From Rhynchobatus australiae (taxonomy: Eukaryota): a stretch of DNA of 63,532 nucleotides. Where the stretch lies: NCBI GenBank assembly GCA_034780895.1, contig JAUZTB010000094.1, positions 9,707,992 through 9,771,523 on the forward strand, given 5' to 3'. The notes beneath the pieces are model-generated. The model ran no database searches. It saw only the letters and a program-made list of their open reading frames with translations, and was not told the DNA's origin. Made by a program: the position numbers and the translations under genes. This document shows, in pieces, positions 7,221 through 54,728 of the stretch. How positions within the stretch are numbered: the stretch's first letter is position 1; every line of letters begins with the position of its first letter.

Positions 7221-7225
<5 letters not shown>

Positions 7226-8363: not shown

Positions 8364-8534
<171 letters not shown>

Positions 8535-22261: not shown

Positions 22262-22315
22262 CTTAGAACCTGGAGCACCTGGGAAACCGGGAGCACCAGC
22301 AGGACCTACTGGACC
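22262..22315 (-). CDS. COL2A1: Exon 18 (54 nt) [18 protein letters not shown]
   Basis: AG/GTGAGT boundaries, Gly-X-Y. Confidence 0.96.
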
Positions 22316-23205: not shown

Positions 23206-23226
23206 TATTTAACCCGAGATACTCAC

Positions 23227-23271
23227 AGGAGGACCAGCTGGACCAGGCAGACCATCATTGCCTCGGGCTCC
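23227..23271 (-). CDS. COL2A1: Exon 17 (45 nt) GARGNDGLPGPAGPP
   Basis: AG/GTGAGT boundaries, Gly-X-Y. Confidence 0.96.
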
Positions 23272-23798: not shown

Positions 23799-23852
23799 AG
23801 CTGAACCAGGTGGCCCAGGACGACCTCTCTCACCAGGTAGACCACGTGGACC
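23799..23852 (-). CDS. COL2A1: Exon 16 (54 nt) GPRGLPGERGRPGPPGSA (GLOGER integrin motif)
   Basis: AG/GTAAGT boundaries, Gly-X-Y. Confidence 0.96.
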
Positions 23853-24080
23853 CTGTCAAGAAAAGAAAGTATCCTTTAGGAGCTCTACAGCTAAAATTTC
23901 CTGCTGGTCAAATAAGTGATGCTGTTTTAATGTTGATGCAATTTATAAAATATTTCCACAATGTAAATTAGTGTTTAGAGTTATCACAATAAATCATGCA
24001 AGAAGTTTAAAAAAAATAATTGTCTTGTGCTTTTATATAAAGAAAACATTCCTGGGGTTAAAAGGAAAACAGGTACTTAC

Positions 24081-24125
24081 CATGGGACCAGGAGCTCCAT
24101 TCTCCCCTGCAGCACCAGCTTCACC
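24081..24125 (-). CDS. COL2A1: Exon 15 (45 nt) GEAGAAGENGAPGPM
   Basis: AG/GTAAGT boundaries, Gly-X-Y. Confidence 0.96.
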
Positions 24126-25719
24126 CTGCATGGAGAAAGGTTATTTACTTTCAGAAAGGTCAGTGGGAACAGTGCAGCTAAAAACAGAAATTTAAGCATC
24201 ATTCAGAAATGTTTATCCCACTATTACAGGAGTGCATGCCTGACATTAAGCACACAATTAGCACTACTTAATTTGATTTCTACTATCAACCCAATATGAT
24301 CTTCATGATAGATAAATCCAACCCACCAAGTCAACCTCACATCTGTACCCCACTTGAATCAACTCCTAAAAATAAAACTAGTCATGATCCATCTTCTCCT
24401 TACTTGCCCTGAAACATCATCCTTTTTGCCACTCAAGACACACCAACTTCACTCACTATATGGCTCCAACAATCCTGGAAAGCTCACCTCAAGTGTTTTA
24501 TAATTTATGTCAGATATTAAAGCATTATTAGCTTCAGGGATTGAGACTCCTCAACCTAGTATAGTTAATTAATCAGAAAGTGATACCTTCCAGTTTGCAC
24601 ATTCCAATGTTTGCTGATATCAACATCTTTGGTTTGGTACTATAGATTAAACAGGTGACATTTATGAAAGGGCTGAGCTTCACTTTATTGTGCTACCATC
24701 AGTTCATGATTCTGAAACACGTAGGATTATTGTGATTAAATTCAAATGTATAGTTTTCCCTTCTGTATGTGCACAAAAAACATTTTATGAAAGTTTTAAT
24801 GTGATTGGGCCCACATCTGCTAGAAGTTACACCCATTGGGAAACTGGGCTAGGCACTTTAGGGTACAATTTACCTTAGTGCTACTAACGTTTGCATAGCA
24901 TCACCTGTGCATGCGATGATATTATTAATCTGCCTTACAGAAATTGGAGCAATAATATGTAACGTACAACCTTCATTTTTTTGTTCCAGTAAAAGAAGCA
25001 GCAAACCCCACAGCAAGTCAGCAAGGAGACATCAATTAAGGAGTCACATCTAGGACCTTGATATATTGCTGTGTGCATCTACCTGTTGTGTTTTTAATGT
25101 TCTGTTTATTTCACTTATCCTTGTTGGGTCTCACAATACTTATTGCAGTGATGCACAGCAGATTTACATGCTGCAGTGTCTTCAAAGTGATAAACCTGGG
25201 GCACAGGGCTTGATCTATGCCGACTATTGGGGGTGGGAGGGGTGTAGTGAAGCTCATGGTGGGGGGTGGGGGAAGGGAAAGCTACATGCATTGAAGACAT
25301 ATGTACCTAACCCCATCTTGATTTCTGTGGAGACTGCCACTGACTGGCTTCTCATGATTCCAAGTGGCAAATACACAGCATCCATGAAATTCTCAGGCAG
25401 TTGTTATTGGGAACTGTACAGGTTGTGTTTTATTGCAGCAATCAGGGTGAAAACCAGCTCAACGATTTTTAAAGGTAAATGTTCCCAATTTCCCCATTTT
25501 CTGGAGTCCTCTGGGTGTTCAGGCTAAAGGCAAGACCACTCAGCATACTAATTCAATTTCTAGACTAAATTCCTTCAGGTCGTCTACCTCTGCTGGGGAG
25601 AGAAATATTGTGATACTGTGTGCTTCACTTGCTGTGAGCAGTGGAAAATGATGTGCCCACTGTTAAAGGGACTGGGGGCCTATTACAGATCAGATCAGAA
25701 CAGACTGACATAATTCAAT

Positions 25720-26030
25720 ACTGACATATCCCACTAAGGGACATTCAGTCACAAGCCTATCCCAGGATAAAACATTGCATCATGGGCTTATTCTAGACTG
25801 GGACATTTCAGCATGGTCTTATCCCAGAATTTTTCTTCAACACTTATTGCTCTGTATACAGGCCTGAGCCAGAATCAGAAACATTGACATATAGTCAGAC
25901 CTATCCCATATTTTACCTGCCCTATCCCAAAGTGGTACACTTCTGTACAAGCTTTTCCCAGATTGGAATCAGCTCTGTCTCTAACGGGCTCGTTCTGTAC
26001 AGGCCTATCCAAAATGGAACATCTCTGCTC
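25720..26030. repeat. Diverged ~30-bp minisatellite (cctatcccagactgggacat) related to the 39.5-41.9 kb array
   Basis: Repeated ctatccca / gggacat cores. Confidence 0.6.
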
Positions 26031-26119
26031 AGAGAAGAATTCTAGAAGACAGGAGTTTCAGAAAACAAAATCTGACAGAACAATTGCACTTTAATGAAAT
26101 ACTGATGCATTTTCTGTAC

Positions 26120-26173
26120 CTTTGCACCAACAGCACCGGTTTCACCCTTTGCACCATCGAGACCTGCGTAACC
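26120..26173 (-). CDS. COL2A1: Exon 14 (54 nt) GYAGLDGAKGETGAVGAK
   Basis: cAG/GTACAG boundaries, Gly-X-Y. Confidence 0.95.
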
Positions 26174-26310
26174 CTGTAGGGTAAAAAGAAAACAATAACT
26201 GCCAAAATTATCTTTATTTAATTAAATAAAGGTAGAAATGTATCTGGCTTTAAAGCATAAGTTTTTACTTAATGTGTTATTGATTTTGTTAAAAAGAGAT
26301 TAGCATATCA

Positions 26311-26418
<108 letters not shown>

Positions 26419-29400
26419 CTAGCAAAGTAAAGGAGAAAAGGAAACAATGAGGAACAAAGGAAACANNNNNNNNNNNNNNNNNNNNNNNNNNNNNNNNNNN
26501 NNNNNNNNNNNNNNNNNNNNNNNNNNNNNNNNNNNNNNNNNNNNNNNNNNNNNNNNNNNNNNNNNAGTTGGTGGCAGCTGGTTTCCTTGTTGTGTGGCAT
26601 TTTCTACCAAGCTCCCACAGGAATGTAATGAATCAAAATCCCTGTCACTGGTCGAAGTTAATCAGTTGCACAGGTTTAACTCATGTTGGAGCCGCAGTGC
26701 GATAAGAGCACTTGGACCCATCCTTTATACATTTTGATATACTCTTTAAACAGGCTCTTAAATATTTGTACATTGCTCTGCGGCAGCCTGACAACTATTT
26801 TATAGTACATTTGATCAATCATTTGTTGTTAGGTCCAGTGTCTCCATGTACCTGCACTTTTCAGGTTTTCCAAATACTGTTGGATATCAAAATATGCAGT
26901 TTACCTAGCACCAGGAGGATAAATCCCATGATGCCACAGTAACCTGCCACTTTCAAAAAGATACCTTAGTAATCACTTATAGATTGAGGGAAAGTTAAGT
27001 TTTATTTTGTAAAGTATATTAGAGAGCGTATCACAAAATGTACCTAAGACTCCTACTTAATATACAGAATATTATCACCTTACTCCACTCCAGCAAAGAA
27101 ATTATTTAAAGTCCGGGTTTAATCTTACATTATTTTTGCATTGCGTGCAATCATCTTTCGTAAGCTTTAATACAAAAGAGGATTATGAAGATTTGCATGC
27201 TTTCTGTTATTTTCATATTTCATCACCCCAATCAATCACATTACCCCGACACCACAACTAATGCTATCAGGTCCCTTGTCCCTTCATCTTTCACTGCCTT
27301 TCCTTGCAACACTTCATTTCAATGACCCTCACAAAGCCTATACAATTTTTCCCAATGCCTCCTCTATCACCCGTCTTATACCTAACCAAACACAATCCAG
27401 CACTCCTCATCTACACATGCCATATTTTATTGCAAGCATGGAAATGTCATTGGGGGTTGCTTCCTCCCTCAGTGTCTGCTGTCTTCATTGAAAGTCTGCC
27501 AGAATTCAATTTTGTTATAAGAAGATAAAGGAACCATTGAGATCAAAGAAAAAAATTGCTCTTCTGCATTGTTCTCTTGCATTGTTCACCACTAGAGACC
27601 ATGTTTCATTTCAGAAGAGCATATGATTTGAAATGACCTTTGCCAACTCAGGTGGAGATAATTAATTGGCCCTGATGTTAAAATTCAGCTGGTGTTTGCT
27701 GAAAGCTGAAGTAACATTAAAAGACTTGTTCTCACCTTTCTAGACAGCCTCTTTCTCACCCACTAATTCATTTATCATTCCTTTAGTTTAATAAATTACT
27801 TATACAGATCCAGAACATAAAACTTACAACTGAGATGCGATGGGTATATTTATCTTCTTTTTCACAATATAGTCTTTCTTTTTATTTAAATCATTAATTT
27901 GTCCTCATTTCCCCTAAATCATCTGAAGAGCAGCTAAAGGGCTAAAAGTGCTTGAAAGTAAAGATGACTGAACAGTGCAGCTTCACCTTGGAAACTCAAT
28001 ATGTTACCAATGTTCATACTGCACAATCCAATTTTGTATCAGTTATGGTTCTGAGCAAAAACATTAAGCCCCATTCTCACTCACTGACGACAGGATACAA
28101 AACAATACAATGGCTTGATTAAAATTATATTTTTTTAAATTTCATCCGTAAAGGAATTTTGGATATTTGAAATTATTGTTACTAAGACAGAAATGCAAAC
28201 AGAATTTTTTTTCAGGAAGCATTTTGAGTCATACAAGGGAATTCTGTGGCCAGATTAGACAATCTCAAAATAGTCTGTTCATTGTAAGACCACATCTAGT
28301 CTGGAGTCTCCCAGTGTGATCATTTTAGAACAAAAGTTATCAATCATGATGAAATAGACTCTACAGATAGAGTTTTTAATGAAACAAATGCCCCAGGACA
28401 TTTTATATGATCAGGAACATTAAGATGAGTAATGTGCAAATAAATATACATTGTCTTAAGGCTAAAGAGTTTAACTGTCGTTAAATAAACCATGTATGAG
28501 TTCTTACTGAGGTCAATTAAATGGGGCAAAGACTTCTGATGAAATCTCATTCTTATCCATAACTTATCATGCATTCTGCCCACACCAAGCACTATCTTCC
28601 CGATGTCTCAACTTTGACAATTTTCCTTCACTTTCTCCCCCTCTCTCTTTCCCCACCCCCAACATAAATTTCAAAGTCTTGATTCTACTCATTTCAGGTC
28701 TACCGGTCTCTTCCTGTGCAGAAGGTGTCCTACAGTGATTCTTATTAGGAGGGAACATGCAGCAGAAACTTGCTCAAAGAGATGAAAGAGGAAATGTACA
28801 GAAGATTTGCAGAAAGGATGGAGAGAAAGTCAAAGACACAGCTGAAAATAGGTTTTAGAAATTTGGTAAGAGGAAGTAGAAAAGCACAGGGAGCTTTGCA
28901 GTGAAAGCTGGAAGGGTTTAACTTAGTGCCTTTTAAGCCTTGACCACCAGTGATGAAGCTCAGAACCAAGAAGAAGCCAAATGTAGAGGAATGCAGAAAT
29001 ACCAGGCAGACAAGAGATCAGAACCATGGGCGATCACAACTGCAGGGTAGTATATAGCCCGGGGGGTGGGTGGGGAGGAGGAATGAGGGTTGTGAAGTTA
29101 ACATGTTGGAGGTTATGAGGTACAGAGGGAACAACAGAGAACACAAAATATTGTCTGAAATTACTTACTGCAACATTTGTGCTTCTCAAAATCAGTTAAG
29201 TATAAAACTACAAAAAATCTACCATGTTCAAATTTGCACTTTCGCATATAAGAAATATTTTCCAAGTTCAAAAATATACTAAAATTATTTTCAGCAAGAT
29301 AATGAAAACAGCCCTAAGAACTGGTATTTAGGAAAAAGACAGAGAGGTTTGACCTTGGGGAAGGAGACTTGTACAAATTGCATTCTTTGAGGAGCTTCTT

Positions 29401-29534
29401 GAATAGAAACTAATTGACAAAACTTAATGAAACATATCAAAGGAGATTAGGACTAACTGCATCCATTGAAAAATGTCATCAGACATCATATAAGGCAACA
29501 TGTCAGTTGTTAATTAGCTGTACTTTTAATATTT

Positions 29535-30040
29535 TAAAGCCTGGTCAGACCCCACTTGGAGTACAGTGCTCAGTTCTGGTCACCTCACTACAGGAAGGAT
29601 GTGGAAGCTATAGAAAGGGTACAGAGGAGATTTACAAGGATGCTGCCTGGATTGCGGAGTGTGCCTTATGAAAGCAGGTTGAGGGAACTCGGCCTTTTCT
29701 CTTTGGAGCGACAGAGCTTGAGGGGGGACCTGATAGACGTATATAAGATGATGAGAGGCTTTAATCGGGTAGATAGTCAGAGGCTTTTTCCCAGGGCTGA
29801 AATGGTTGCCACAAGAGGATATAGGTTTTAGGTGCTGGGGAATAGGTATAGAGGAGATGTCAGGGGTATGTTTTTTTACTCAGGGAGTGGTGAGTGTGTG
29901 GAATGGGCTACCACCAATGGTGGTGGAGGCAGATATGATAGGGTCTTTTAAGAGACTGTTAGATAGCTACATGGATCTGCGAAAAATAGAGAGCTATGGG
30001 TAAACCTAGTAATCTCTAAGGTAGGGACATGTTCAGCACT
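29535..30040 (+). mobile_element. CR1 LINE 3' fragment (ORF2 C-terminus), relatively young
   Basis: ORF 29556..29831 EYSAQFWSPHYRKDVEAIERVQRRFTRMLPGL...RLRELGLFSLERQSLRGDLI is the typical CR1 ORF2 tail. Confidence 0.92.
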
Positions 30041-32319
30041 ATTTTCAAGGCCAGAAATCCAGTGCCTTGGATATTTGTCAGAGGTTCCTTTAATTATTGT
30101 TGAAAAATATAGTCCTTATTCCTCAAACAGAAGCTATTCCCAAAAGATTGCCATACACAGCAAGTCAAAAAATGTTTTCACAGATTTGTTTATTCAACTG
30201 ATGTGGAAATGAGTGGGAAAGAAGATAAGAATGCAGAAGATGCCAACATCTTTTTCATCACCTAGAACAGAACTTGTGTTGCAGTTTATTGCCAAGGCAA
30301 CTGCTCAAGTAATTTCTTTTTAAGGTGGTTCCTTAAGAGTTGATAACTTGCAGCTATATTATACATTTCTCATAATGGAAATCAAAATCTGGAAGGTTAA
30401 GGGGGAAAATTAAGGAATGAACAGGACAATGTAGAGGGAGGAGAACAAAGTTGTATATGAAACAAACAGTGTGAGTTTCCACCTTAAGCTGTTAAATTAG
30501 CCCCTGAGAAAACTTCACTGTGTAATTAATTGGAACAGGATTCATTCCATCTGTTAGGTTACAATTGGATACCCATCAAAATAATAAAAATTCAAATAGG
30601 GCCACTAAATATGGTAATCACACCTGGAGGCAAGTACCCGAAAGGAAAACAAAGATAAACAGAATCAAGCAAACTTTCGAAACATGGAGGAACAGGCTGA
30701 ATTAAAATACAATAATAGAAATTGTAAACTGTCTTTTGTGATCTCAAAGCTGAAAATCAATTGAAAGGCTAACAAAATATAATGGAAATCACAATAAAAG
30801 TTGAATTAAAAATGAATAGAATTCGCTAATTCAACAACAGTTGCACAGTTTTATATCTTGAAGAAACCTGCTGCAAACGCAGAATGAGCTGACTAATAAC
30901 TACTAATATTCTGCACGTAACTGAAGTTTAAATCTGCAACTCAAATACTGAGCAAACAGTTATAGAAAAGATATTTAGCTCTTCGGTAATATTTCAGAAA
31001 AGATGCTCAATTCTCTATTCTAGCCCATTTTTTCCTTTCAGGGTTTCAAGAGGTGTATTTGATTTGAAGTGGGTGAAGGGAGAGGTGGTGCAAGTCGGTT
31101 TCGGTTTACAGCAGCTTCACTCTCAATTACTTGTGTCTCACCTACTGCCTCACTACCACTGCACCTTCCACCCTATGATCCTTGCACCATTCTCCTATTA
31201 TCCTCTCCTCATTCCCATCACTATCTCTAGCTCCTTTAATTTGAGCTACCTACTTAATTCAATGGGAATGAAAACAGGATATATTTGTTCCAATTAAACA
31301 GTGGATTATTTGGAAGACTCTTTTCTGAACATGTGTAAACCTCTGCATCCTCTTCTTCAATAATGTTACTTGCATTTATCCTCCATCTACTAACTCCAAT
31401 CTCACTGACCTTGGACCAAGAGCAAGACAGATGAAGGGTATGGTAGGGAATGTGGCGAGAATGAAATGGGATCAATGTAAATGGATGTTTGACACTCAGC
31501 ATGGACTTGGTGGATTGGAGAGTATCTGTGCAGCATGAATTGATGTGATCTCCCTCCCCATCTCCATTCCTACAGTGCTCGATGGTTTTTATTTTCTGTC
31601 TCAACTTACTTGTCTCCCTAAAAATAATTCTGATTAAGTGCATTTTGTACCTGCTACTCTTTATGCTCTTAACAACCCAGCTAAAGACAGGAGAATGAAA
31701 ACAGGACTTGCTTCATGTCCTTTTGTAACGCTACAGCAAGATGCTCTGTCATCATCTTTTCCTGTCTGTGGGGAATTCCTGACTTCCATTTGGCAGACAA
31801 GCCATTGTTTATAAAACTTCACTTTCAAAAGTGCAAAGGTCATAATACCATTCACTACTGAAGTACAAGTTATTTGAAAACCATAAAAGGTGTTAAGAAT
31901 AAATACATCAAAATTTAATTTCAATTCAGCATTAAATATTTTAGTTCTTAACAACATTAAAATTCAAAGCTGCCTGACAGATGTTGTGCCCTTCCCTTGA
32001 CTGAGATACTTGTAGTCAGTTGTACTCACTAACTTCCTGCTTCTTTGCGCTTAGAGATTTGTGGAACTGCACTTACTGATAAAGTGTTTGTGAGGCCCAT
32101 TAGCCGGGATATTGCAGCATTCAGCAGGAAATCCTCGGTCATGTAGCTGGTTACCTAAACACATTTAAGTAAGGGAAACACAATTAAAAACAGTTGTTGC
32201 AATGCTTGGCCAGCTGAGTGGAAATTGCAGCCAGCTATCTTCTGCTCCAGAAAAGAAGACAGACATTTAGTGCAGTTTTATCCCGGTAGGATGATTTAAA
32301 ATGTTAGCTGGTTGATGTC

Positions 32320-32705
32320 AACAGTGGTACAGTTGGTAGTACTCTTGATGGAATCAAAAAACTGATAGTTCAATCCCATTTCAGAGACAGAGGGGATGCT
32401 GCACTGTTTGGAGTGCTATCTTTTAGAGGAGATATTAAAACACTATACTGAGGCCCTGTATGGACACTATTTCAAAGGAGTGATTGTCAGTGTCCAGGTG
32501 AATATTTACCCTTTAAGTTATCTGAACACTATTACACTACTACTTATGGGAACTTGCTGCATGCAAATTGTTTACCGCATGTGAATTATCTACTACTTTT
32601 CTACACTACCATAGTGACTACAATTCCTAAGTCATTAATTGGCTGTGAAATGCACCGTATCAGCTTATAGTCACGAAAGACATTTTAGAAACGCAATTAT
32701 TTTTT
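32320..32705 (+). mobile_element. Old SINE of DeuSINE/SacSINE1 type
   Basis: tRNA-like head (gttcaatccc), gctgcactg...gaggccctgt body, L2-like tail also seen at about 12060-12155 and 44660-44825. Family name from recall. Confidence 0.55.
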
Positions 32706-33589
32706 TTAATGATTATTGCAATTCAGCATGTGGGGTCAAGTTCACAATGATAATAACCAAAATAAAACTTGAGCAGTTAATCATCGCTCACAAGAACACA
32801 AAGATTACCATTTTGGCTTGTTTTAATTTTTGATGCTATTAAGTTCTATTTTATATCATTCATGGAGCAAGCTTCACCACTGATAGGCAACTATTTATCC
32901 AGAATCTTCTAGTCAAAGGATTAAAGGTCACAAATGATCACTGATTACGCCCATTTTTCCCCGTTATGCTGGCAATTTTCTCCCCTCTCATTTCACCTGA
33001 AGATGGCAAGAATTAGCCGAGCTTTATTTTAAATGGCATCCTTGAACTGGACAAGTACAAGCAGAGATATCCCAGCTATCTCTAACCCTCAATCGATAGA
33101 CATAAATGCTTTTAATAACAGTTCCAGTAGCAGAATCATTGGTAATCATAACACACAAACTTTCTCCAGATACATTCCCACATTGAATAATTTCTTCAAT
33201 TCCACTTATTTTCTCCAGACCTAAAGTGTACCTATAGGAGCTGACTGGAGTCCAAGCTATGCCCATCTGTTTGTGGGATGTCAAACACAGTCTTTCTTTT
33301 GATCCTGGAATGTCAAAGGCCGAGGGGTGACCTGATAGAAGCATATAACATCATGAGACACACAGATAGGGTGGATAGTCAGAGTCTTTTTCCCAGGGAG
33401 GAAATGTCAAATACTCAAGGGCATAGTTTGATTCAGTGCTGAATTATTCCATAACTATTAACAGGATTCCTTGTCATAAATCCTCTACTGTAAACCAAGA
33501 GCTCAAAGGCTAATTATCAGGCTGCAATTAGCCATTTTCAGTATAGAACAAAGATCACTGATGACACCTCCACAGTATGAATGTTTTTT

Positions 33590-34520
33590 CTGTAAAGTGC
33601 AGTGAATAATCTTTGACCCACAAGCTACTATCTTTATTTTTATTCTTCCCTCTTCCGAGATCACTCCCATCTGCTTTATTAGACCCTTCTAACAGTTCTG
33701 GAAGGTTACTTGTGTACTTTCTAGTGAGGACAGAACCAAAGTATTTGTTTAATTGCTTTGCTATTTCTTTGTTGCCCATTATTAATTTTTGTGACTGTTG
33801 AGACCCTACACTGGACTTCCTTAATCTTTCTTTTTCTGTATTTGTTGAAGCTTTTCCAGTCCATTTTATGTTTCCTGTAAGTTTACTTTCATGCTCCATT
33901 TTTTGCTTTCCTGACTAATGTCTTTGTCCTTCCTTGCTGAAACCTAAACTGCTTGAAAACCTCAGACTTGATACTTTGACATTCCCATGTGATTCATCTT
34001 TGGATCTCATGTTCTCCTTAACTTCTTTTGGTTTACTTTTCCTTTTGTATTTTTATGCCAGGCATGAATGTTTAGATGCTATTGGAAATCAAAACAAACT
34101 GCAAATGCTCAAAATCTGAAATAAAAACAGAAAATGCTGGAGAAACTCAGCAAGTCAGGCAGCATCTGCAGGATGAGAAACAGTGTTAACCCTTCAGGTC
34201 CGAGACCTTTTATCACATAACGTAACTGTTGCAGCATTAATTCTTTAAATGTTTGGCATTGATAATCCACTGTAATGCTTTTTAATGAGTCTCCTCAATC
34301 TGTCATAGCCAACACATTCCTCATACCTTCATAGTTTCCTTTGCTTAAATTCACGGACTTAGTTTTGGATTTATCTACTTTACTTTCTAGCTTCATGAAG
34401 AACTCCTTGATGTTATGGCCACTCTTCCCTTATAAACCTTCTCACAAAGCACAACACTCAGTCTACGATAGCATATTACTTCGTAGGCTGTTCCATATAA
34501 TGAAGAATTCTGGAAGGCAA
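33590..34520 (-). mobile_element. Decayed CR1 ORF2 fragment with a nested hairpin-element half (about 34085-34220)
   Basis: ORF 33555..33899 contains LIMGNKEIAKQLNKYFGSV, resembling the CR1 tether region. Confidence 0.7.
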
Positions 34521-36485
34521 AAAACTAGGAAGTAAAAAGCTTCAATTCTTATGAAGAATTTCAAACATCTTCATAAGAACTTAAAATAACCTAAAAAGTT
34601 AATTACTTCAAAATCCATAAAATTTTGAAGTAATTGTCATGAGGTAAATAAAAACTAATTTCTACATTTTGAGTCTTAATTGCCAGAAAGGTTAAGTTAT
34701 GACTTGGTAAACCTTTTAAAAACACAGTTGCATGTGAGCTAACATTGCCTTGAATTTTCACATCACAGTGGGAGCAGCTTATAAATTCATATCGCATCAC
34801 TTACTTCTGAAGATTGAACTAGAGGACCCTGCGATATGGAACCAAGTAGAGGAGCAAGTATCAATGAAAGCATCTTCCATGTTAAACTGGATTTGTGCAC
34901 AGTCCAAGAGATGCTGTCAGATTCACTTAATTACAAAGGTGATGCAGCCCTTGATGCAAATTCTAGATTAGCAATTTACTTGAAATACTGATGTCATGAT
35001 TCATAATAAAATGGTTCCCAAATTTTGCTCTATATCTGATTTTCACAACCCTTTATCCATAAGGTTCCAGTTCAAGTTATCTCACAAGTACCATCTTTTG
35101 CACTGTATTCAAAAGCAGATTAATTCACGGAAGGTCTCATTTCAGGCCTGGGTAATTTTTAACTCTTTTGGGCAGAATATTTGCTTGGAAGGATGGTAGG
35201 GAATACTTGAAGACAGCATGGAATCAGGCAAATGCACAAGTACCCCACACAGCACCGGCTTGTGCCTCATCACTGAGAATTCACTGGCAAGACTGAATTT
35301 GGCCAGCCCTAACCACAAGAAATAGAAGCCACTGTGTCCTTGAACCTACCCTCCATCTCAATAAGATTGGGGCTGAGTCGATAACTCCATGTTATTTGCC
35401 AGCCTGATTTCCAAACATATATCAATATCAACTCTGAACACAGTCAACAAATGAGCATCCACATATCTTGTAGTGAGAAATTCCAAAAAAAAAATCACAG
35501 TCCTGAGTGAAGTATACATTGGAACATTAATATCAATTTCACGTTAACAGTGCTTGTACTCAAATTTTCATTGTGGGGAGTGGAGGAAGGGAGGAGAATA
35601 AAGGGAGGAGAGAAACTTTGGAAGACATTTCATAGCTTCGTTTCCTTAATTATTTACAGCCTCTTCAGAACATAAAATAATTGATTCACTTTGGAGCAAA
35701 ATATTCTCAATACTTTTTATTTCATTTGTGATTAATATATAAACATGTTTCTTGTTTATGAATTATTTTGTACTGTTGTCTTATTACATGTACTTGTTTA
35801 TACAAGTAGTTTAATAATGCCCTTTGGTAACTCTTAAGACCTTAACAGAATGCTTCATGCTTGGTATACTGGTTTGTAGTAACCAAAAGATTCTTGCCTG
35901 TACTGACTGTTATGTGTTGAGTATATACAACATGCACATGCCTTCATGTAAAAAGTGCTCTGGAGATATTGAATAACTATTCATGTGAATGTTATAATGC
36001 TCTAATACTGGTCTGTATTAAACTATAGTATGAGTACTGTAATATTGCTTTGAAATTATTAGCACACCTCAGCTTGCAGTAACTAACAGGATTTTAATAT
36101 GAGGTTTTGAAATATGAAATAGAGATATAACTGGAATGAAAAAAACATACATTGGAGACTAAATGGGATAGAAATGTTTGCCTAGATTATGGAGGAAGGA
36201 GAAAAATAGCTCAATCTGTGGGGTCTGTGCCAACAGTGGAATTGGCATCATTTGAAGAGTTCCAGGTAGATAACTATGTTACTTGGGTTTTTCTAACTTC
36301 CAGAAATGGATCATCCTGTCTTCCTGGAACTTCTAATTCCTGTGCATCATTTTATGATGTTCACCTGGATACTACTTTTTCTTTTAGTTTGATAACAAAA
36401 TGCAGATCACATGGGCAAACAAACCCGTGAGCTATTGTAATGCTTATCTGTTCAGTTTGAAATTTAGATCAGAGTTCCACTGTAC

Positions 36486-36539
36486 CTGTGGTCCTGGGGG
36501 TCCACGTTCACCTGGTTTTCCAGATTTACCAGCCTCACC
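36486..36539 (-). CDS. COL2A1: Exon 12 (54 nt) GEAGKSGKPGERGPPGPQ
   Basis: cAG/GTACAG boundaries, Gly-X-Y. Confidence 0.95.
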
Positions 36540-36637
36540 CTGTGAGATAAATGGAGATCATCCTGTTAGTCCTGTGCGTAATCATAAAGTGCTGTCTAAA
36601 TCAAATAAAAAATCTGACAATTAAATCAAATGCTTAC

Positions 36638-36691
36638 ATCATCACCAGGTTTACCAGAGGGTCCAGGAGGACCACGGGGACCCATGGGACC
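36638..36691 (-). CDS. COL2A1: Exon 11 (54 nt) [18 protein letters not shown]
   Basis: AG/GT boundaries, Gly-X-Y. Confidence 0.96.
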
Positions 36692-36893
36692 CTGCAACAA
36701 AGAAACACTCATTTACAAGAGAGAATCACATGTCCATTTCACCTAAGACCAAAGCATAACAGCCCCCTGCTCCTCCTCCCAAATGGAAGCTGTCAAACTG
36801 CCATGTTAAAGATCACATGCAAACTCAGTCAACAGCCAAAGATAGATTTAACAAAAGTAAATTTGCCATTCCACTCATCTACCCACTATTAAC

Positions 36894-37030
36894 TACAAAT
36901 CCCCAACAGCTATCCCTGTAACACTATCCCTGTTACAGCTACCCCTGTTACAAATCCCCAACAGCTATCCCTGTAACACTATCCCTGTTACAGCTATCCC
37001 TGTTACAAATCCCCAACAGCTATCCCTGTT
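36894..37030. repeat. 55-bp tandem repeat, about 2.5 copies, built of ctatccctgt(t/a)aca subunits
   Basis: caaatcccc at 36896, 36951 and 37006. Confidence 0.92.
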
Positions 37031-37278
37031 CTCCCATGGCCTGGATTTTAACAAGGCTCTTCCTAGTTTGTATAGCTCAGTTGCTCACTGGACAGCTTTT
37101 CAGAGCTCTCAGAAGACACAATAGACTTTTTTTCCTTGAAGATAAGACATTAAATATTACAACATTTATATCTTCAAAGTTATCCCACAGTAAAAAGGAC
37201 AGTTACTTTCCCTTTTACTTAATCACATTCATTCTTAAATCTGAAATCGATTCAGTCAGTGTTATCTGGGATACTTAC

Positions 37279-37332
37279 AGCAGCACCAGCTTCACCGGGT
37301 TCTCCAGGAGATCCTTGGAAACCTTGAGGGCC
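37279..37332 (-). CDS. COL2A1: Exon 10 (54 nt) GPQGFQGSPGEPGEAGAA
   Basis: AG/GT boundaries, Gly-X-Y. Confidence 0.96.
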
Positions 37333-37491
37333 CTGTCAACAGAATAAATCCATTAGTGACAAATCTCAGAAGAACTAAAATGTAAGATTCTCCTATATTT
37401 TAAATCTAATTCCCTTGTAGTGCCATGTTATGTTCATTAAGTTAGTAACTATACAATAACTCCAAAATAGGATCAGAATGTCAATACTTAC

Positions 37492-37536
37492 GGGAGCACC
37501 TGTGGGTCCTGGAGGTCCTCGAGGTCCCATGGGGCC
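37492..37536 (-). CDS. COL2A1: Exon 9 (45 nt) [15 protein letters not shown]
   Basis: AG/GT boundaries, Gly-X-Y. Confidence 0.96.
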
Positions 37537-43807: not shown

Positions 43808-43885
43808 CATTGGTCCTTGCATGACACCTATCTGAGCGCCTCCTGCTTTCTCATCAAACCCTCGTGCCATCTGTGAAGCAAAGTT
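43808..43885 (-). CDS. COL2A1: Exon 8 (78 nt) [26 protein letters not shown]: N-proteinase site, N-telopeptide, start of main helix
   Basis: cAG/GTAAGA boundaries; FDEKAGG cross-link lysine motif. Confidence 0.97.
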
Positions 43886-45933
43886 CTGTTGAAGTAAAAC
43901 AAAAACTTGAATTAGCTGGGTGGCTGTGCTTCATCACCTTAACATGGTTATCTTATGCAGAAACACCAGAGTGAATGAAACCTTAGGTCCACGTGCATAA
44001 TATCACAGGAATGTCACAAAGTCTCGACTCATTGTTTGGGAGAATTTAGCAGGGAAATAGCTCATCTAGTAAAATAAAATTTGCATTTTATTCTTTAGCC
44101 ACAGGGGATCTGGCTTCAAATCTGGACAGTTGAGACAAAAGTTTCACTCTGTGTTGGGCCTGATGTGATATATACTTGTGTAGTTCCAATCAAATTTTTT
44201 GTGTGAGAGCCTAGGGTGCAAAACAATCCCTGGATAGGTGGAAATTGGCATTCTCGCCACACAAAGCGGGGAGTAGGAAATTGAGGATGAGGAACTTTGT
44301 AGGGCAGAACAGAAGAAGCGGTTTATTTTATTTAGAAAATTAAGTTAATTATGTAACAGCCAGTAACATAATGAGATAACCATATCTTCTGTTATTGTAC
44401 TCCTGCCCCAGCAACTCATCAATTTACAGTTTATTTTATGAGCTACATACTCCTTCAACACCCTGCTGTCAATTTCTAAGTTTGAGTCATACATCAGAAA
44501 AAATTTGAAACACTGTCCCTCATAATAACAATCTTGTCATTAAATTCAATTTATTTTCTTTTTGATTTTCTGTGTTCTTAAAATTTACCTTTTGAGCAAG
44601 CTTACCTAATGCAACAGCAAACTTTCTTTCTTTAAGCTATACCATCAAAGACATTGGTCTCATTGTCTTGGTCTCATTTTTATTAGTGGAATCTTACTGT
44701 GTGCAAAAATAGCTGATGCTTCTACTTATGTTCTACATTACAAAGCACTGTGCTTAAGGTAATTCATTGTATATTAAGTATTTTGAGACATTTCTAAGAA
44801 GCCTGAGATAAATGGGCTCTTTCGTTAACATTTAACACATTTAAACTGACTGCTTCAATTGTCAAAATAACTCATTTTTTAAGGTAATTACTGGAAGAAG
44901 AAAATCTGTTCACATAACTCTCGTTTCTATCTCTGCTGTCTCTTTATAAAGCCGTTACAGGCTCAACTAATTGATATTTCCATAATTTCATGACTATCAA
45001 TCTCACACGTGGAAGGTCCTTGTGGTATGAACTGTGTAGGTTTCTAAAGCTGAGCAGTCAGAGCTAATACTCTCTGAAACTTCCCAGTCGTCGGAATGTA
45101 ATTTATGAGAAATAGTTTAATCTTGTTAAAACATGCCTGCAACCAAAAAAAGTTGGATCTATGATTAATAAAAGACAAAATTGATGAGGAAATATTCCTA
45201 ATGTCTCCATTATGACAACCTCAGTTTGAAATAAAATGACCTGTCCGAATGGAAGAGATTAGAAGATCAAGGCTGTATAAAAGAAGATGCGTTCATCTGA
45301 CAGATTCAGATATATGGATTAGAATTTTACATTGGCTTGTGATGTTTTTATGGGTAAATGCATTTGATCAATTGAAAATGAGCATCTCTGATTCTATTCC
45401 CTGGCTATGCTGAGTTGGTTGATCTTAGCTTGTAAGTATGCTCCTAATGGCCTCAGTGTTCTTGGGTTATGTAAGTGGAAACATTCTGTCAGGTGATTAT
45501 CAGGTGATTCCAGTTGGGAAAGTGTATATGTATACATGTGTGGAATGGCTTGGATTTGATTTCTCCAACAGACAAATAAATTCCTGAAAGGGGGTTGTGA
45601 TATGCAGGCACAAAGTGCAGAAGTTCCACCATTTAAGGGTGGGACAGATTTGACAGAAAACTTGGCCTTCGCCTCTCTTTTTTCTTACATGTTCATGGAG
45701 TGCTGAGATAGCTTCGCTCTTACAGAAGATTGTATGTAGCACTGGATGAAAGAGAATCACAAAGCCCCAATCTTAAATTGCTTTCTAATCTAAATATAAA
45801 TGTTAAATATTAAAGGGAGAGAGTGAATGGAATGCATAAACCTAACTGTGATACAATTCAGACTTGAGCAGCAGAGGGACTGGGTTGCACATTGAAGAAC
45901 AGGTTAACCTCCTGATGGTTGAGTTGTACTTAC

Positions 45934-46035
45934 TCCGCCAAAGTCAGACATGCCAGATGTTCCAGGTGGCCCGGGTGGTCCAGGATTGCCGGGAGTTCCA
46001 GGTACTCCATCTCTACCACGGGGACCAGGTACACC
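45934..46035 (-). CDS. COL2A1: Exon 7 (102 nt) [34 protein letters not shown]
   Basis: tAG/GTAAGT boundaries; end of the minor helix. Confidence 0.95.
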
Positions 46036-46281
46036 CTAAAATCAAGTAATAATACCTCCACATTAGAAAAGAAAATTAAAATCATGCACGTGACTGCAGA
46101 AAATACATCTGAATGTGCTATCGATTGAAGAAGTACTTTAACGTCCACTTCTTATTGGTGATAATTTTAGAGACTTCCTTTTGCTGATTTCTGCTGCACT
46201 CCAGATAGCATGAGATACTTAATTTATTAAAGTTATTTTATTACATGGAACTAGTTAACAAGAAATACAAAGTTCACTCAC

Positions 46282-46335
46282 TGCTTCACCCTTCATTCCA
46301 CGTAATCCCCTTATTCCCTGTTCTCCAGCTGGTCC
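46282..46335 (-). CDS. COL2A1: Exon 6 (54 nt) GPAGEQGIRGLRGMKGEA
   Basis: tAG/GTGAGT boundaries; Gly-X-Y. Confidence 0.95.
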
Positions 46336-46428
46336 CTAAGGAAAAAGCAAAGGAGGATTATTAAGAGATTCAAAATGCTTCCTGAAATTCCAACAGTTGG
46401 CATAAAATTTGGAAGGAGTGACACTCAC

Positions 46429-46461
46429 TTGTGGGCCTGGAGGTCCTCTTGGTCCTACAAC
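46429..46461 (-). CDS. COL2A1: Exon 5 (33 nt) [11 protein letters not shown]
   Basis: cAG/GTGAGT boundaries. Confidence 0.95.
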
Positions 46462-46857
46462 CTGGGAAACACAAAGAAAAAAAAAGTAAAAATCTGCAAT
46501 CATCAATCTTGCTGGATTAATAATTCAGAAAGATTAAAAATCTTGTAAGTAAATATTAAAAAAGTGACATTTAAATTGTTCAAAATATTGAAGTATAATC
46601 ATGAATTATTTATATCAATCTGACAATTATTCAGAGATATAGGGCCAAGTCTTCAATGCCTTCATATAAATCACTTTAGTCAGTCTCTTGACCTGATAAA
46701 TGCTGCAGCAAATAATTTTTTTAAATGCCCGTAGTGCAACTATTTCTTTCACCGTGAGTTAATGCAACAACTGGTGTCATAAAAGGGTGTGATCCACAAT
46801 AAAGCAGAGAAATTAACAGAATTTTCAATGATATTTAAAAGTGCACATGTAACTTAC

Positions 46858-46890
46858 ATCTTTAATATCCCCTGGTTCACCTTTCTGTCC
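46858..46890 (-). CDS. COL2A1: Exon 4 (33 nt) GQKGEPGDIKD
   Basis: AG/GTAAGT boundaries; typical alpha-1(II) N-propeptide. Confidence 0.95.
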
Positions 46891-46979
46891 CTAAAAATAA
46901 TTTGGAAAAAAAGAAAAGGTCATCGATAGTTACAATGAAGGTTGGAATCATAGAACATCTTTGACCTTATTTCCAAAAC

Positions 46980-47160
46980 AAAAAAAACTATTGATGCTAG
47001 AAATCTGTAATAAAAACATAAAATGCTGGAAATACTCGGCAGGTGATATAGCATTTTTGGGGAGAAAAAGGAGTTAATGTTTCAACCTGAAATGTTCATT
47101 CTTTTTTCTCTTTNNNNNNNNNTTCTTGACCTGCTGAATATTTCATTATTTTGTTTATAC
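46980..47160. mobile_element. Decayed hairpin element
   Basis: aaatgctggaaatactcggcaggt ... acctgctgaatatttc inverted arms. Confidence 0.65.
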
Positions 47161-48014
47161 TTGAGCTCAGTTCATTCAATTCATGTGTGTTTTTAAGTGC
47201 AGCATCTACATGTTCATATATTGTGCAACTTTCCATTTTAATCCATTTCCAGGAGCACATACATTTTTGCATTAATTATGCATTAACTGGTACACCTATG
47301 CCAGAAATTTTGAGGACAGGTGACAAAAAAGGGTGGGGTTATTGAAGCTTTCTTCAGCGGGTTGTTGGAATGGGTACTGCCGCTTCCTTTTAAGAAATAC
47401 ATTGAGAGCAGTGTCAGTAATTGTACACAAGGGGAAGCCCGAGACTATATTTAGTGCAGTCTCCATTTGTAATTGGAGAAATAACAGTGATTGAACTCAA
47501 GGCAATTCCACTCAAGGTGATGTCTTGTGACAAAACTAAGTTCAGGGCTAGTATGTCCTCAGAGTAGGGACAGTGTTGGAGGGTGTATTAAAGACAGGAT
47601 CAATGACTGCACCTGATCAAGGTCAAAAGCAGTACTAGGAACAATGTTGTTGCAAAGAGTTAATACAGTCTCATTCAAGTATGGGACCATGACCAATGAA
47701 TGCACTCTGGAAAAGGACAATGAATGCACTCTGGAAAAGGAAAATGCACTTCAATAGTCAAGATCAATGACCATGGTCAGGACAGGGTCATTCATTTAAC
47801 TCCGGACACAATCAGTGTCTGAAGTCACTGCAAGAAAACTGAGGTTCCCCAGGGCAGAGTAAATGGTGGTGCTCATGAAAAACACAGGAACATTACTAAG
47901 GGCAGTGTCAACAATCATATTCAGGTCAACATTGGTAACAACAGTCAAGATGGGGTTATAATCTGAAGCCAGGTTGAGGTCATTGACAATCATCAAAAGA
48001 GGATTGATGAGTAT

Positions 48015-48385
48015 GGTCAGAGCAGGAACATAATGTGTACTTAGGGCAGGGTCAGTTAGTGTGGTCAGGAGAGGGTCAGTGAACGTAGTGATGTCAGGGA
48101 CAGTAAGTGTACTCAGGGCAAGTACAGTGCGTGTCGAGAGGGCAGGGTCAGTGCATGTAGAGAGGGGAGGGTCAGTGAGTGTAGAGCGGGCAGCGTCAGT
48201 GATTGTAGAAGAGGGCAGGATCAGTGGGTGTAGAGAGGGCGGGGCAATGTGTGGTCAGTCAAGGTCAGTGGGTGTGGTCAGAGCAGGGTCAGTGGGTGTG
48301 GTCAGGGCAGGGTCAGTGGGTGTGTTCAAGGCAGGATCAGCAAATATAGTCAGGGCAGGGTCATGAATGTAGTCAGGGCAGTAGT
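48015..48385. repeat. 24-bp G-rich minisatellite (gcagggtcagtgggtgtggtcagg); degenerate copies extend about 47550-49100
   Basis: 8-residue periodicity GSVGVVRA in spurious ORF 48061..48366. Confidence 0.85.
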
Positions 48386-48407
48386 TGCTTTTATCAAGAA
48401 ATGGCAC

Positions 48408-48765
48408 AGGGCAACACAGTGGCACAGCTAGTAGAGCTTCTGCCTCATAGCTCCAGAGACCCAGGTTCAAGCCTGACCTCAGATGCTGCGTGTGTGGAGT
48501 TTGCTCATCCTCCCTGTGACTATTTGTATTTACCCTGGGTACTCTGGTTTCCTCCCGTAACCCAAATATTGGCAATTAGTGGGCCATTGTAAATTTCCCC
48601 TAGTGTTTAGGTGAGTGGTAGAATCTGGGGGGTGGGGGGCACAGGGGCATGCTGGTTGATGGGAATGTGGGGAGCATAAGTTACAGGGAAAATCTGTGGG
48701 GGCATTGAGATGACTCTGTGAGTGGGTATCAACTTGATTGGCAGAAATAGCCTCCTTCTAAATCA
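48408..48765 (+). mobile_element. tRNA-derived SINE (V-SINE/HE1-like)
   Basis: Head TGGCACAGCTAGT...GGTTCAAGCC; same body as 2690 and 4471. Confidence 0.85.
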
Positions 48766-49738
48766 TCAAACATGTCATATCAGTGCCAATGACTGTGGGC
48801 AGAGAATGGCCATCTACATTATTTATGACAGGATCACTGACTTGACTCCTTGCAAGGTCAATCATTTAATAAGGGTAGGGTCAATAAAAGTAAAGACTGC
48901 ATTCTGGGAAAAGTTTGTGACCTTTCTTGGGCTAGGACCAATAGCTGTGGTGCACAAAGGATTGGTGATGTTACTCAGGCTAGGATCAATGAATATAGTC
49001 TGACAAAGGTTAGTGACTTTACTTGGGTGTGGATCAGTAACTGTTTATACAGTTTTGAGTCAGTATTTGTACCCAGGCTTGTGCAAGGGACTTTTCTTGG
49101 CTCATTGTCAAAGACTGTACCCAGGTAAGTGTAGGATATACTGTTGGAATTGTATTGTGCATGAATGTTCATTAGCTTAAAAAGTTGCTTGAAGAGGAAT
49201 GACATGATTTAATAGGCATCATTATATTGTACTGACTCCTGTGGCTGCTTTCTGATTCTGCTCCAGGTGAACTGAATGTAGATAATATTATAGTCTATCT
49301 TTTGCATTGCAGTTTGCCAGAGGCAACTGTCAGTCAGTCAGCTAACGTTTCACTTATTCTCATTAAAATAATTTTCTTTCCAGCTTTGTATAATAAACCT
49401 GCTGCTCACCCTTCACCCTAAGTAGCAATCACTATAAATCTGTCAATCAACAGTTATTAAAATTCATCTGCCATAGATCCAGATAATGAGTTTCAGATAG
49501 GATAAAAAGTGCAAATCCATTCACTTCTATAGGTTCAGGTCGTGGCATGAGTACTGGGGACTCTGTTCATTGAATCATTTGCACTAGATCATTCCATATC
49601 TGCCTGGCCTGGATAAAAAACTTTGCTTTGGTGTGATGGAGCACACTGTTACTTTAATTCTACTGTTAACATTCAGTCTTGGACACTTGATGTTTAAGTC
49701 AATCGAAACATGTAAAATCATTAATAGTGAGATCTTAC

Positions 49739-49755
49739 CTTTGGACCTCTTTGCC
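49739..49755 (-). CDS. COL2A1: Exon 3 (17 nt) xQRGPK
   Basis: cacAG|GGCAAAGAGGTCCAAAG|GTAAGA; restores phase 0. Confidence 0.9.
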
Positions 49756-51145: not shown

Positions 51146-51358
51146 GATCGACAGGAGGAGCTCGGTCGTTCAGACAGACAGGGCAGCATTCTCCAAAAGG
51201 AATCTCAGGATTAGGACAATCCTTAAAATCTTCGCAGATTATCTCGTCGCAGAGGATAATCCCATTGTCACAGACACAGATACTACAAGGCTCGGGTTTC
51301 CACACATCTTTGTCACTATATGTCTGCCCGTCTTGAATACACTTCACTTGCAGGTCTT
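51146..51358 (-). CDS. COL2A1: Exon 2 (213 nt), VWC/chordin-like cysteine-rich domain; the type IIA cassette exon
   Basis: ttacAG acceptor; [71 protein letters not shown] with 10 Cys; GTAATT donor; phase 1-1 and length divisible by 3. Confidence 0.95.
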
Positions 51359-54579: not shown

Positions 54580-54670
54580 CATTTGCTTCTTGACATTTGA
54601 CAACAGCTAATAGAATGGCTTGCGTTGCTGCAAGCAGCACTAATGTTCGGGAGTCCACAAACCTGAACAT
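54580..54670 (-). CDS. COL2A1: Exon 1 coding part (91 nt), signal peptide MFRFVDSRTLVLLAATQAILLAVVKCQEAN
   Basis: ATG at 54670; hydrophobic signal peptide; phase-1 end followed by GCAAGT (GC donor). Confidence 0.93.
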
Positions 54671-54704
54671 ATCTAAATATTAGACATGCAGAGTCGTTAT
54701 GTGG
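54655..54704 (-). promoter_or_regulatory. Collagen 5' stem-loop (5'SL) spanning a uORF and the start codon
   Basis: CCACATAAC GACTCTG CATGTCTAA TAT TTAGATATG TTCAG GTTTGTGG: two stems separated by an internal loop, with one ATG in each arm of the upper stem. Confidence 0.85.
54673..54687 (-). other. uORF2 ATG TCT AAT ATT TAG (MSNI*)
   Basis: Ends 2 nt before the main ATG, inside the 5'SL. Confidence 0.8.
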
Positions 54705-54728
54705 ATGGAGAGGAGAGGAGTCCCACGA

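What the first reader, a model, noticed from the sequence alone, without database searches (positions are those of the whole stretch)
54655..54704. COL2A1 carries an intact collagen 5' stem-loop (LARP6-type) with embedded uORF
Seen: the mRNA-sense sequence CCACAUAAC-GACUCUG-CAUGUCUAA-UAU-UUAGAUAUG-UUCAG-GUUUGUGG folds into a lower stem (CCACA/UGUGG plus AAC/GUU, one bulged U), an internal loop (GACUCUG/UUCAG) and a 9-bp upper stem. It holds a 4-codon uORF (MSNI*) ending 2 nt before the start AUG. Known: this is the architecture of the 5'SL of COL1A1, COL1A2 and COL3A1 mRNAs (COL1A1, from recall: CCACAAAGAGUCUACAUGUCUAGGGUCUAGACAUGUUCAGCUUUGUGG), which LARP6 binds to regulate translation. It is generally described as absent from mammalian COL2A1. 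Yet the exons show this gene is alpha-1(II). Inference: the 5'SL/LARP6 system was ancestral to all clade A collagens, may still control cartilage collagen in this lineage, and was lost from COL2A1 on the mammalian line. It also explains the MFRFVD N-terminus, whose codons form the 3' arm. This is the best candidate here for an under-described system; frog and fish col2a1 with similar N-termini may share it.
Basis: partly seen in the sequence, partly recalled or inferred. Interest (0 to 1): 0.8.

Follow-up and report, generated by a model that had tools for sequence, protein, structure and literature searches.

The report
Collagen start-codon hairpin in shark COL2A1
A shark-like fish keeps, at the start of its cartilage collagen gene, the RNA hairpin thought to be special to type I and III collagens; this was already noted once in frogs in 1991, and whether the hairpin's usual partner protein LARP6 binds this slightly altered copy is untested.

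Summary
The element is real. It lies on the minus strand (54704→54655), folds as two stems around an internal loop (−16 kcal/mol, 0 of 200 shuffles), and holds a 4-codon uORF ending 2 nt before the start AUG. A second 4-codon uORF lies upstream. The gene is COL2A1 (32 in-frame exons; VWC and helix exons match α1(II) best), and the nearest named protein is from a catshark.

Two corrections. First, the core claim is in print: Su et al. 1991 (PMC2289160) noted this start-codon hairpin in both Xenopus col2a1 mRNAs (data not shown), although LARP6 papers still say it is confined to types I and III. Second, 'intact' is too strong: the loop is 6×4 rather than the canonical 5×4, one conserved G is C, and a competing register (about 0.5) pairs the loop A. 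The five binding-critical bases are still in place.

Protein N-termini, a proxy for the 3′ arm, keep the motif in 8 of 11 fish, frog and squamate rows, 0 of 4 birds and 0 of 1 mammal, which suggests two separate losses. LARP6 binding and the transcription start are untested. Verdict: a variant of a known element, of moderate interest.

The parts
54655..54704 (-). Collagen 5' stem-loop (5'SL) variant spanning the start codon
54696..54704 (-). Lower stem, 5' arm (non-coding; bulged U at 54699)
   Evidence: outer 5 bp at 0.87-0.98, inner 3 bp at 0.35-0.41
54690..54695 (-). Internal loop, 5' strand (B1-like, 6 nt instead of 5). The A and both U's sit at canonical distance from the upper stem; C stands where the NMR model has G9. 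54693-54695 can instead pair with 54660-54662 (about 0.5).
54667..54689 (-). Upper stem (10 bp including two G·U pairs) with 3-nt apical loop; holds the uORF2 AUG in the 5' arm and the main AUG in the 3' arm
54663..54666 (-). Internal loop, 3' strand (B2), with the three binding-critical bases C, A, G; made of codons 2-3
   Evidence: critical bases; sequence
54655..54662 (-). Lower stem, 3' arm (codons 3-6). The first base is G (Arg codon), which prevents the canonical closing pair.
54673..54687 (-). uORF2, MSNI*, out of frame with the main ORF, weak context (-3 U), stop 2 nt before the start AUG
Type I collagen mRNAs also have two short uORFs.
54707..54720 (-). Pyrimidine tract between uORF1 and the stem-loop
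54834..54869 (-). Two TATA-like words (at 54869 and 54839); inferred transcription start near 54810-54840, upstream of both uORFs and the stem-loop
   Evidence: motif match only; TSS not shown
54580..54670 (-). COL2A1 exon 1 coding part (91 nt, signal peptide), followed by a GC splice donor
51146..51358 (-). COL2A1 exon 2 (213 nt, VWC domain)
43808..49755 (-). N-propeptide/N-telopeptide exons 3-8 (17, 33, 33, 54, 102, 78 nt)
3615..37536 (-). 24 triple-helix exons (45/54/99/108 nt), in frame; no further exon was identified in 1-3614 and the C-propeptide is not in the window

Best explanation
The element is a homologue of the collagen 5' stem-loop, inherited by COL2A1 from the clade A fibrillar collagen ancestor and kept under RNA-level selection in an elasmobranch. 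It most likely works as in type I collagen. Two weak-context uORFs, plus a stem that buries the start AUG, hold translation down by default. LARP6 binds the internal loop, locks the open 6x4 register, and recruits helicase and cytoskeletal partners that raise and localise procollagen translation at the ER. Shown here: sequence, predicted fold, uORFs, gene identity, lineage affinity. Shown in print: the hairpin in Xenopus col2a1 cDNAs, and the mechanism for type I/III mRNAs. Inferred: transcription through the element, homology by descent (about 0.95), continued RNA-level selection (about 0.85), and LARP6 binding to this variant loop (about 0.55).
For: The fold, and its rarity against chance. 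Sense over antisense stability. The layout matches the published 5'SL: two stems, central loop, start codon inside, two uORFs (PMC4813270; PMC4615758; bioRxiv 2020.09.30.320564). B2 C/A/G and both B1 U's are in register with the NMR numbering U10, U12, U25, G28 (PMC12288881). Stems need no fixed sequence. Residue 3 is S or R in 9 of 10 COL2-type rows (window included) and S in 6 of 6 COL1A1/COL3A1 rows of the position table; S and R are the only residues that AGN codons encode, as expected if the loop's A and G are fixed on the RNA. Residues 4-5 show the highest cross-paralogue identity (0.83, 0.80). Xenopus col2a1 cDNAs carry the hairpin. A COL3A1-like N-terminus (MMSFV) implies a changed B2 strand, yet COL3A1 is the most enriched LARP6 eCLIP site (PMC13078889), so some loop change may be tolerated (my inference; it assumes the same register and extends a bird sequence to human).
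Against: The strict 5x4 loop cannot form. The G9 position is C. The register that pairs the loop A away is slightly favoured, 0.51 against 0.41. The loop is described as entirely conserved among type I mRNAs of human, chicken and alligator (PMC11195269), and single loop changes abolish binding. The bound state forms a new pair involving an unassigned loop G, which could be the G that is changed here. Zebrafish larp6a/larp6b double mutants are viable with no obvious bone or fin defect (PMC7055395). No DNA of another species' col2a1 5' arm was available, so covariation was not measured. Trees on the short segments did not resolve orthology.
Confidence: 0.55

Rival explanations
1. The hairpin and uORFs are kept as a LARP6-independent brake on translation initiation. 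The loop has drifted because LARP6 no longer binds, so this lineage shows an early stage of what was completed in birds and mammals.
For: Stems are near-perfect while the loop departs from canon. The competing register sequesters the loop A. Fish larp6 mutants have a normal-looking skeleton.
Against: All five critical positions are retained. The Arg-3 change is shared with catshark and also seen in bullfrog, so it looks tolerated rather than decaying, though the codons there were not seen.
Confidence: 0.27
2. A non-functional relic: the 3' arm is held by constraint on the signal peptide, and the 5' arm is a leftover.
For: Much of the signal peptide is conserved among col2a1 orthologues, well beyond the arm, so protein constraint is real.
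Against: The 5' arms are non-coding yet complementary to the 3' arms. The fold is strand-asymmetric. A hairpin at the same place exists in Xenopus. A neutral 50-mer would not last across the shark-tetrapod split (established divergence time; inference).
Confidence: 0.08
3. The element was copied into this gene from COL1A1 or COL1A2 by gene conversion or exon-1 swap in this lineage, and is not ancestral.
For: The first eight residues are nearly the same in COL1A1 and COL2-type rows.
Against: Residues 9-27 are COL2-type and shared with frog, snake, lizard and teleost rows, not with COL1A1. Xenopus has the hairpin too. One ancestral origin plus losses is simpler than repeated copying.
Confidence: 0.05
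4. The gene is not COL2A1 (for example COL5A2 or a lineage-specific clade A copy), or the 5' half of the element is not in the mRNA.
For: AU tests on a 98-column tree reject no grouping of the window (p 0.28-0.46). An AG at 54674 could act as an acceptor. The TSS is not mapped.
Against: VWC best PDB hits are alpha1(II), E 1e-30 (COL1A1, COL3A1 and COL5A2 VWC domains did not appear, so this search has no paralogue control). Four helix exons map collinearly on the type II chain 9wxp_BD at 59-90, 110-145, 164-196 and 215-247. One exon is 31/33 identical to type II against 25/32 to alpha2(V). N-propeptide identity is 69-71% to eel, cod, silverside and bullfrog rows, 52-55% to COL5A2, 50-53% to COL1A1 and 43-46% to COL3A1. 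TATA-like words lie 135-165 nt upstream of the element.
Confidence: 0.05

Closest known systems
Collagen 5' stem-loop of COL1A1, COL1A2 and COL3A1 mRNAs, bound by LARP6 (PMC4813270, PMC4615758, PMC12288881, PMC11195269, PMC13078889; passages read)
   Same: Spans the start codon of a clade A procollagen; two stems around an internal loop; 3' loop strand with C, A, G; two U's in the 5' loop strand at the NMR model's spacing; two short uORFs.
   Different: Host gene is COL2A1; 50 nt against 46-48; loop 6x4 against 5x4; C at the G9 position; G·U instead of G-C closing the upper stem; slipped or alternative pairing at the top of the lower stem; inferred distance from the cap 105-135 nt against 75-85; binding untested.
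Start-codon hairpin of Xenopus laevis col2a1 mRNAs (Su et al. 1991, PMC2289160; passages read)
   Same: Same gene and same position; seen in cDNA; near-identical signal peptide; the paper already contrasts it with other known type II mRNAs.
   Different: One sentence, data not shown, no sequence or function given, predating LARP6. The frog has Ser at residue 3 where the window has Arg. The window extends the case to cartilaginous fish.
Rfam families (release 15)
   Same: None matches: 0 hits at gathering score in the window; 3 hits at E 0.5-9.7, none on the element.
   Different: No Rfam model matched the element, so a library test of membership was not possible.

Membership tests
Canonical LARP6-binding collagen 5'SL | Overlaps the start codon of a fibrillar procollagen mRNA | tested here: met
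   Main ATG at 54670 is in the 3' arm of the upper stem; 702-aa open frame over 32 exons
Canonical LARP6-binding collagen 5'SL | Two stems flanking an internal loop | tested here: met
   Predicted only:
Canonical LARP6-binding collagen 5'SL | Nine-nucleotide (5+4) conserved internal loop, 46-48 nt overall | tested here: not met
   Loop is 6+4 (or 3+4 in the rival register), 50 nt; strict descriptor 0 hits; G9 position is C
Canonical LARP6-binding collagen 5'SL | Five binding-critical bases (B1 A and U; B2 C, A, G) | tested here: inconclusive
All present at canonical distance from the upper stem, but the A is paired in about half the ensemble.
Canonical LARP6-binding collagen 5'SL | Two short upstream ORFs in the 5' UTR | tested here: met
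   54743-54729 and 54687-54673; uORF1 counts only if the TSS lies upstream of it
Canonical LARP6-binding collagen 5'SL | Transcribed, 75-85 nt from the cap | not testable with these tools
   Only TATA-like words found; they imply 105-135 nt
Canonical LARP6-binding collagen 5'SL | Bound by the LARP6 La domain at nanomolar affinity, with an effect on translation | not testable with these tools
   No protein-RNA tool; elasmobranch LARP6 was not retrieved
Canonical LARP6-binding collagen 5'SL | Significant score against a covariance model of known 5'SLs | not testable with these tools
   No Rfam match; no vertebrate DNA collection on hand; RNA sequences in the NAR supplement could not be read
COL2A1 (alpha1(II)) orthologue | Best sequence match to alpha1(II) in VWC and triple helix | tested here: met
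   By whole-chain E-value, long repetitive chains outrank type II in 3 of 4 exon searches; the in-register stretch is type II's.
COL2A1 (alpha1(II)) orthologue | Groups with COL2A1 in a phylogeny | tested here: inconclusive
   57-, 217- and 98-column trees leave the window unresolved; the 217-column tree places it with COL2-type and COL5A2 rows (89/90), apart from COL1A1 and COL3A1; AU tests reject nothing
COL2A1 (alpha1(II)) orthologue | N-propeptide exon pattern with small exons 3-8 and a cassette VWC exon 2 | tested here: met
   213, 17, 33, 33, 54, 102, 78 nt; the match to the human pattern is recalled and comes from no call
COL2A1 (alpha1(II)) orthologue | C-propeptide identity and synteny | not testable with these tools
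   3' half of the gene is outside the window; no neighbouring gene recognised in 55000-63532

The most novel reading that the evidence does not exclude
LARP6 control through the 5'SL is the ancestral jawed-vertebrate state of type II collagen. It still operates in sharks, bony fish, amphibians and squamates, and was lost twice independently, in birds and in mammals, each time as the start of COL2A1 was rewritten; in birds the new N-terminus is rich in GC-codon residues (8-11 of residues 2-13 are G/A/R/P, against 4 in hamster and 1-2 in the others). Elasmobranchs use a 6x4 loop that widens the known LARP6 recognition code. The 'type I/III-only' rule would then be an artefact of studying mammals and chickens.
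Probability: 0.4. Interest if true: 0.65.

Novelty: new variant of a known kind. Interest (0 to 1): 0.42.

Why it matters
The LARP6 field states that the 5'SL occurs in no collagen mRNA other than types I and III. A forgotten 1991 remark on Xenopus and this elasmobranch gene contradict that for non-mammals. If LARP6 binds, four things follow. Cartilage and notochord collagen is a LARP6 target in the fish and frog models used to study LARP6 and anti-fibrotic LARP6 inhibitors. The element goes back to the jawed-vertebrate ancestor of COL2A1. Birds and mammals give two natural knock-outs for asking what the element buys. The 6x4 loop is a natural mutant for the still unsolved RNA side of the LARP6 complex. 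If LARP6 does not bind, the element separates the hairpin's repressive role from its LARP6 role.

Tried and rejected
Rfam gave nothing on the element.

Phylogenies of VWC or N-propeptide segments were too short to place the gene. Rows were named non-human hits only, many of them truncated or frameshifted gene models, trimmed by rule; the hamster row was cut to the VWC.

The helix comparison found no full-length COL2A1 among 19 named rows. X/Y identity was 0.39-0.47 to the COL3A1, COL5A2 and Danionella rows, with stretches at 0.7-1.0 only in the snake and moray rows. The exon 8 PDB search found nothing.

Two searches for printed primers or morpholinos covering a col2a1 start were uninformative (25 unrelated listings, none opened; 0).

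Ten literature searches (listings) returned no paper on LARP6 binding to COL2A1. They also missed the 1991 paper, which I fetched from a recalled DOI, so absence from these searches is weak evidence. The library lacks most subscription journals.

Not held: Stefanovic 2000, Cai 2010 and a 2011 Genome Research paper on vertebrate RNA structure families. I recall that last paper adding COL5A2 to the collagen hairpin family, unverified. The NAR 2025 supplement with the RNA sequences could not be read; it bears on the exact B1 comparison. The one supplement held for PMC11310781 had no collagen gene names. PMC1440920 lists only COL1A1 and COL1A2 hairpins. PMC10807742 mentions LARP6 only in a reference.

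The cluster-member look-up could not be made, so my COL2 labels on 'hypothetical' rows were not cross-checked. The Komodo model's upstream extension was considered as a view of the 5' arm and set aside as probably spliced. No covariance model was built, since only one DNA copy was on hand.

Full report
Observation. The 50-nt element is at 54655-54704 on the minus strand, letter for letter as reported. It folds into a lower stem, an internal loop and a 10-bp upper stem at -16.0 kcal/mol, z=-4.11, with 0 of 200 shuffles as stable; the z-score falls to between -3.0 and -1.3 with more flank. Only 9 of 5137 GC-matched 50-nt windows of this locus fold as well. The upper stem (about 1.0) and the outer lower stem (0.87-0.91) persist when the element is folded inside the spliced 5' end of the mRNA. 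The antisense strand folds at only -9.8. The uORF MSNI* runs 54687-54673 and the main ATG is at 54670. A second 4-codon uORF (MTAR*, 54743-54729) and a pyrimidine tract precede the element. Both upstream AUGs have a pyrimidine at -3 and the main AUG has G. Rfam has no match, and the core occurs once in the window.

The gene. Thirty-two minus-strand exons join into 702 codons without a stop. All 31 acceptors are AG; 31 of 32 donors are GT and intron 1 uses GC. Exon 2 is a VWC domain whose best PDB matches are alpha1(II) (E 1e-30). Four helix exons fall collinearly and in register on the type II chain 9wxp_BD. One is 31/33 identical to type II and 25/32 to alpha2(V), and another is 32/36 to type II. 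Long repetitive chains score higher by whole-chain E-value in 3 of those 4 searches, which reflects repeat counting. The N-propeptide is 69-71% identical to eel, cod, silverside and bullfrog proteins that I label COL2A1, 52-55% to COL5A2, 50-53% to COL1A1 and 43-46% to COL3A1. Trees on these short segments did not settle the placement, and AU tests rejected none of four groupings, so orthology rests on identity and exon anatomy. The nearest named protein is from the catshark Scyliorhinus torazame (27/30 over exon 1, 53/60 over the VWC), so the window is probably from a shark or ray (inference).

Comparison with the canonical element. From passages of PMC4813270, PMC4615758, bioRxiv 2020.09.30.320564, PMC11195269 and PMC12288881: the 5'SL is 46-48 nt, spans the start codon, has a nine-base loop with five critical bases (B1 A and U; B2 C, A, G), has sequence-tolerant stems, and comes with two short uORFs. 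Figures are not held and the NAR supplement could not be read, so I aligned to the NMR numbering given in the text. Counting from the upper stem, the window keeps U10, U12, U25 and G28 and the C and A of B2. It has G·U for G13-C24 and C for G9. The base below B2 is G, the third base of the Arg-3 codon, so the canonical closing pair cannot form: a strict 5x4 descriptor finds nothing, while one base of slack finds only this element (7 hits in 150 random 62-kb sequences; relaxed after seeing the element). That G pairs either with the C at 54696 (6x4 loop, A free, 0.41) or with the C at 54693 (3x4 loop, A paired, 0.51). 'Intact' is therefore not shown. Some tolerance is plausible: a COL3A1-like protein begins MMSFV, which would change the B2 C if the register holds, yet COL3A1 is LARP6's most enriched eCLIP site in human cells (PMC13078889 passages).

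Distribution. No vertebrate DNA collection was available, so I used protein N-termini as a proxy for the 3' arm. The three protein searches listed 87, 120 (of 1011) and 28 hits. I used only named non-human entries, and of those the 22 with an N-terminus; the Komodo model was trimmed to its internal Met. The pattern M-x-S/R-F-V/L/M is met in 8 of 11 COL2-type rows from shark, teleosts, frog and squamates (misses: cutthroat eel, conger, and a doubtfully assigned goby), 0 of 4 birds (one flagged as unverified by its source), 0 of 1 mammal, 3 of 3 COL1A1 and 2 of 3 COL3A1 rows. The S/R swap at residue 3 is what a fixed AG in the loop predicts. Because squamates are closer to birds than to mammals (established), retention in snakes and Komodo dragon implies separate losses in birds and mammals. 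The 5' arms were not seen, and turtles, crocodilians, monotremes and marsupials are unsampled. Five clade A genes are inferred for the vertebrate ancestor (PMC8887668 passages). Presence in four of them fits an ancestral element; COL5A2 stayed unchecked.

Prior art. Su et al. 1991 (PMC2289160; passages) state that both Xenopus laevis type II procollagen mRNAs have an interrupted palindrome around the initiation codon that can form a stable hairpin (data not shown), a sequence shared by vertebrate fibrillar procollagen mRNAs except type II. Later LARP6 papers nonetheless say the element is confined to types I and III. My ten searches (listings only) showed no test of LARP6 on COL2A1 and no report for cartilaginous fish, but they also missed the 1991 paper. 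I also read passages of PMC4288179, PMC5364628, PMC11310781, PMC1440920, PMC10807742 and PMC2132792; none mentions a COL2A1 stem-loop in the passages shown.

Mechanism. Most likely (0.55) the element works like the type I 5'SL: weak uORFs and a buried AUG restrain initiation, and LARP6 captures the open-loop register and promotes translation. The main rival (0.27) is a LARP6-independent brake with a drifting loop. It gains from the register ambiguity and from zebrafish larp6a/b double mutants, which are viable without obvious bone or fin defects (PMC7055395 passages; the words cartilage and col2a1 do not occur in that text). A relic (0.08), a conversion copy (0.05) and wrong gene or untranscribed arm (0.05) fit poorly.

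Verdict. This is a real, homologous but non-canonical collagen 5'SL in an elasmobranch COL2A1. It is a variant of a known element whose presence in a type II gene was noted in frogs in 1991 and then overlooked. What is new here is the extension to cartilaginous fish, the 6x4 loop, the second uORF and the sign of two separate losses. Interest 0.42; 0.65 if LARP6 control and the double loss are borne out.

Noticed in passing
window 54579-54574 (-): Intron 1 uses a GC donor (GCAAGT); it is the only nearby site that keeps frame with exon 2, and the other 31 donors are GT. Exon 1 appears one codon shorter than in the catshark protein.
   Followed up: partly
window 51145-51125 (-): AU-rich tract right after the exon 2 donor. 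Gene models of seahorse, Komodo dragon, rattlesnake and bobwhite read through what looks like the same tract (NLF), so it seems conserved from shark to amniotes. I recall it as the element controlling IIA/IIB exon 2 splicing; not checked.
   Followed up: partly
window 54743-54729 (-): Second 4-codon uORF followed by a pyrimidine tract. I recall a similar short uORF at the matching place in mammalian COL2A1, which would mean uORF1 outlived the stem-loop; not checked.
   Followed up: partly
window 56974-57066, 57399-57526, 60216-60358: Three related short palindromic repeats with 36-40 nt arms (MITE-like), upstream of the gene.
   Followed up: no
window 59329-59544 (+), 61495-61758 (-), 63104-63346 (-): Decayed frames that read like CR1-type LINE reverse transcriptase fragments (family name recalled).
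   Followed up: no
window about 39961-40042: Strong intronic hairpin (-22 to -23.5 kcal/mol per 50 nt at about 50% GC) in the intron between exons 8 and 9.
   Followed up: no
P0066, P0204, P0207, P0228 (birds), P0168 (hamster): COL2A1 N-termini replaced by unrelated sequences, rich in G/A/R/P in birds, suggesting GC-driven rewriting of the 5' end.
   Followed up: partly
P0033, P0060 (eels), P0046 (goby): Teleost col2a1-like N-termini that break the loop codons (Ile or His at residue 3); possibly duplicates that are losing the element.
   Followed up: no
window 54655-54704: No Rfam 15 model matches the element even at E up to 10; Rfam may have no family for the collagen 5'SL.
   Followed up: partly
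window, 13 N runs (1494 N), nearest at 54133-54138: Gapped draft assembly; no N lies in the element or in the mapped exons, but single-base errors cannot be excluded.
   Followed up: no
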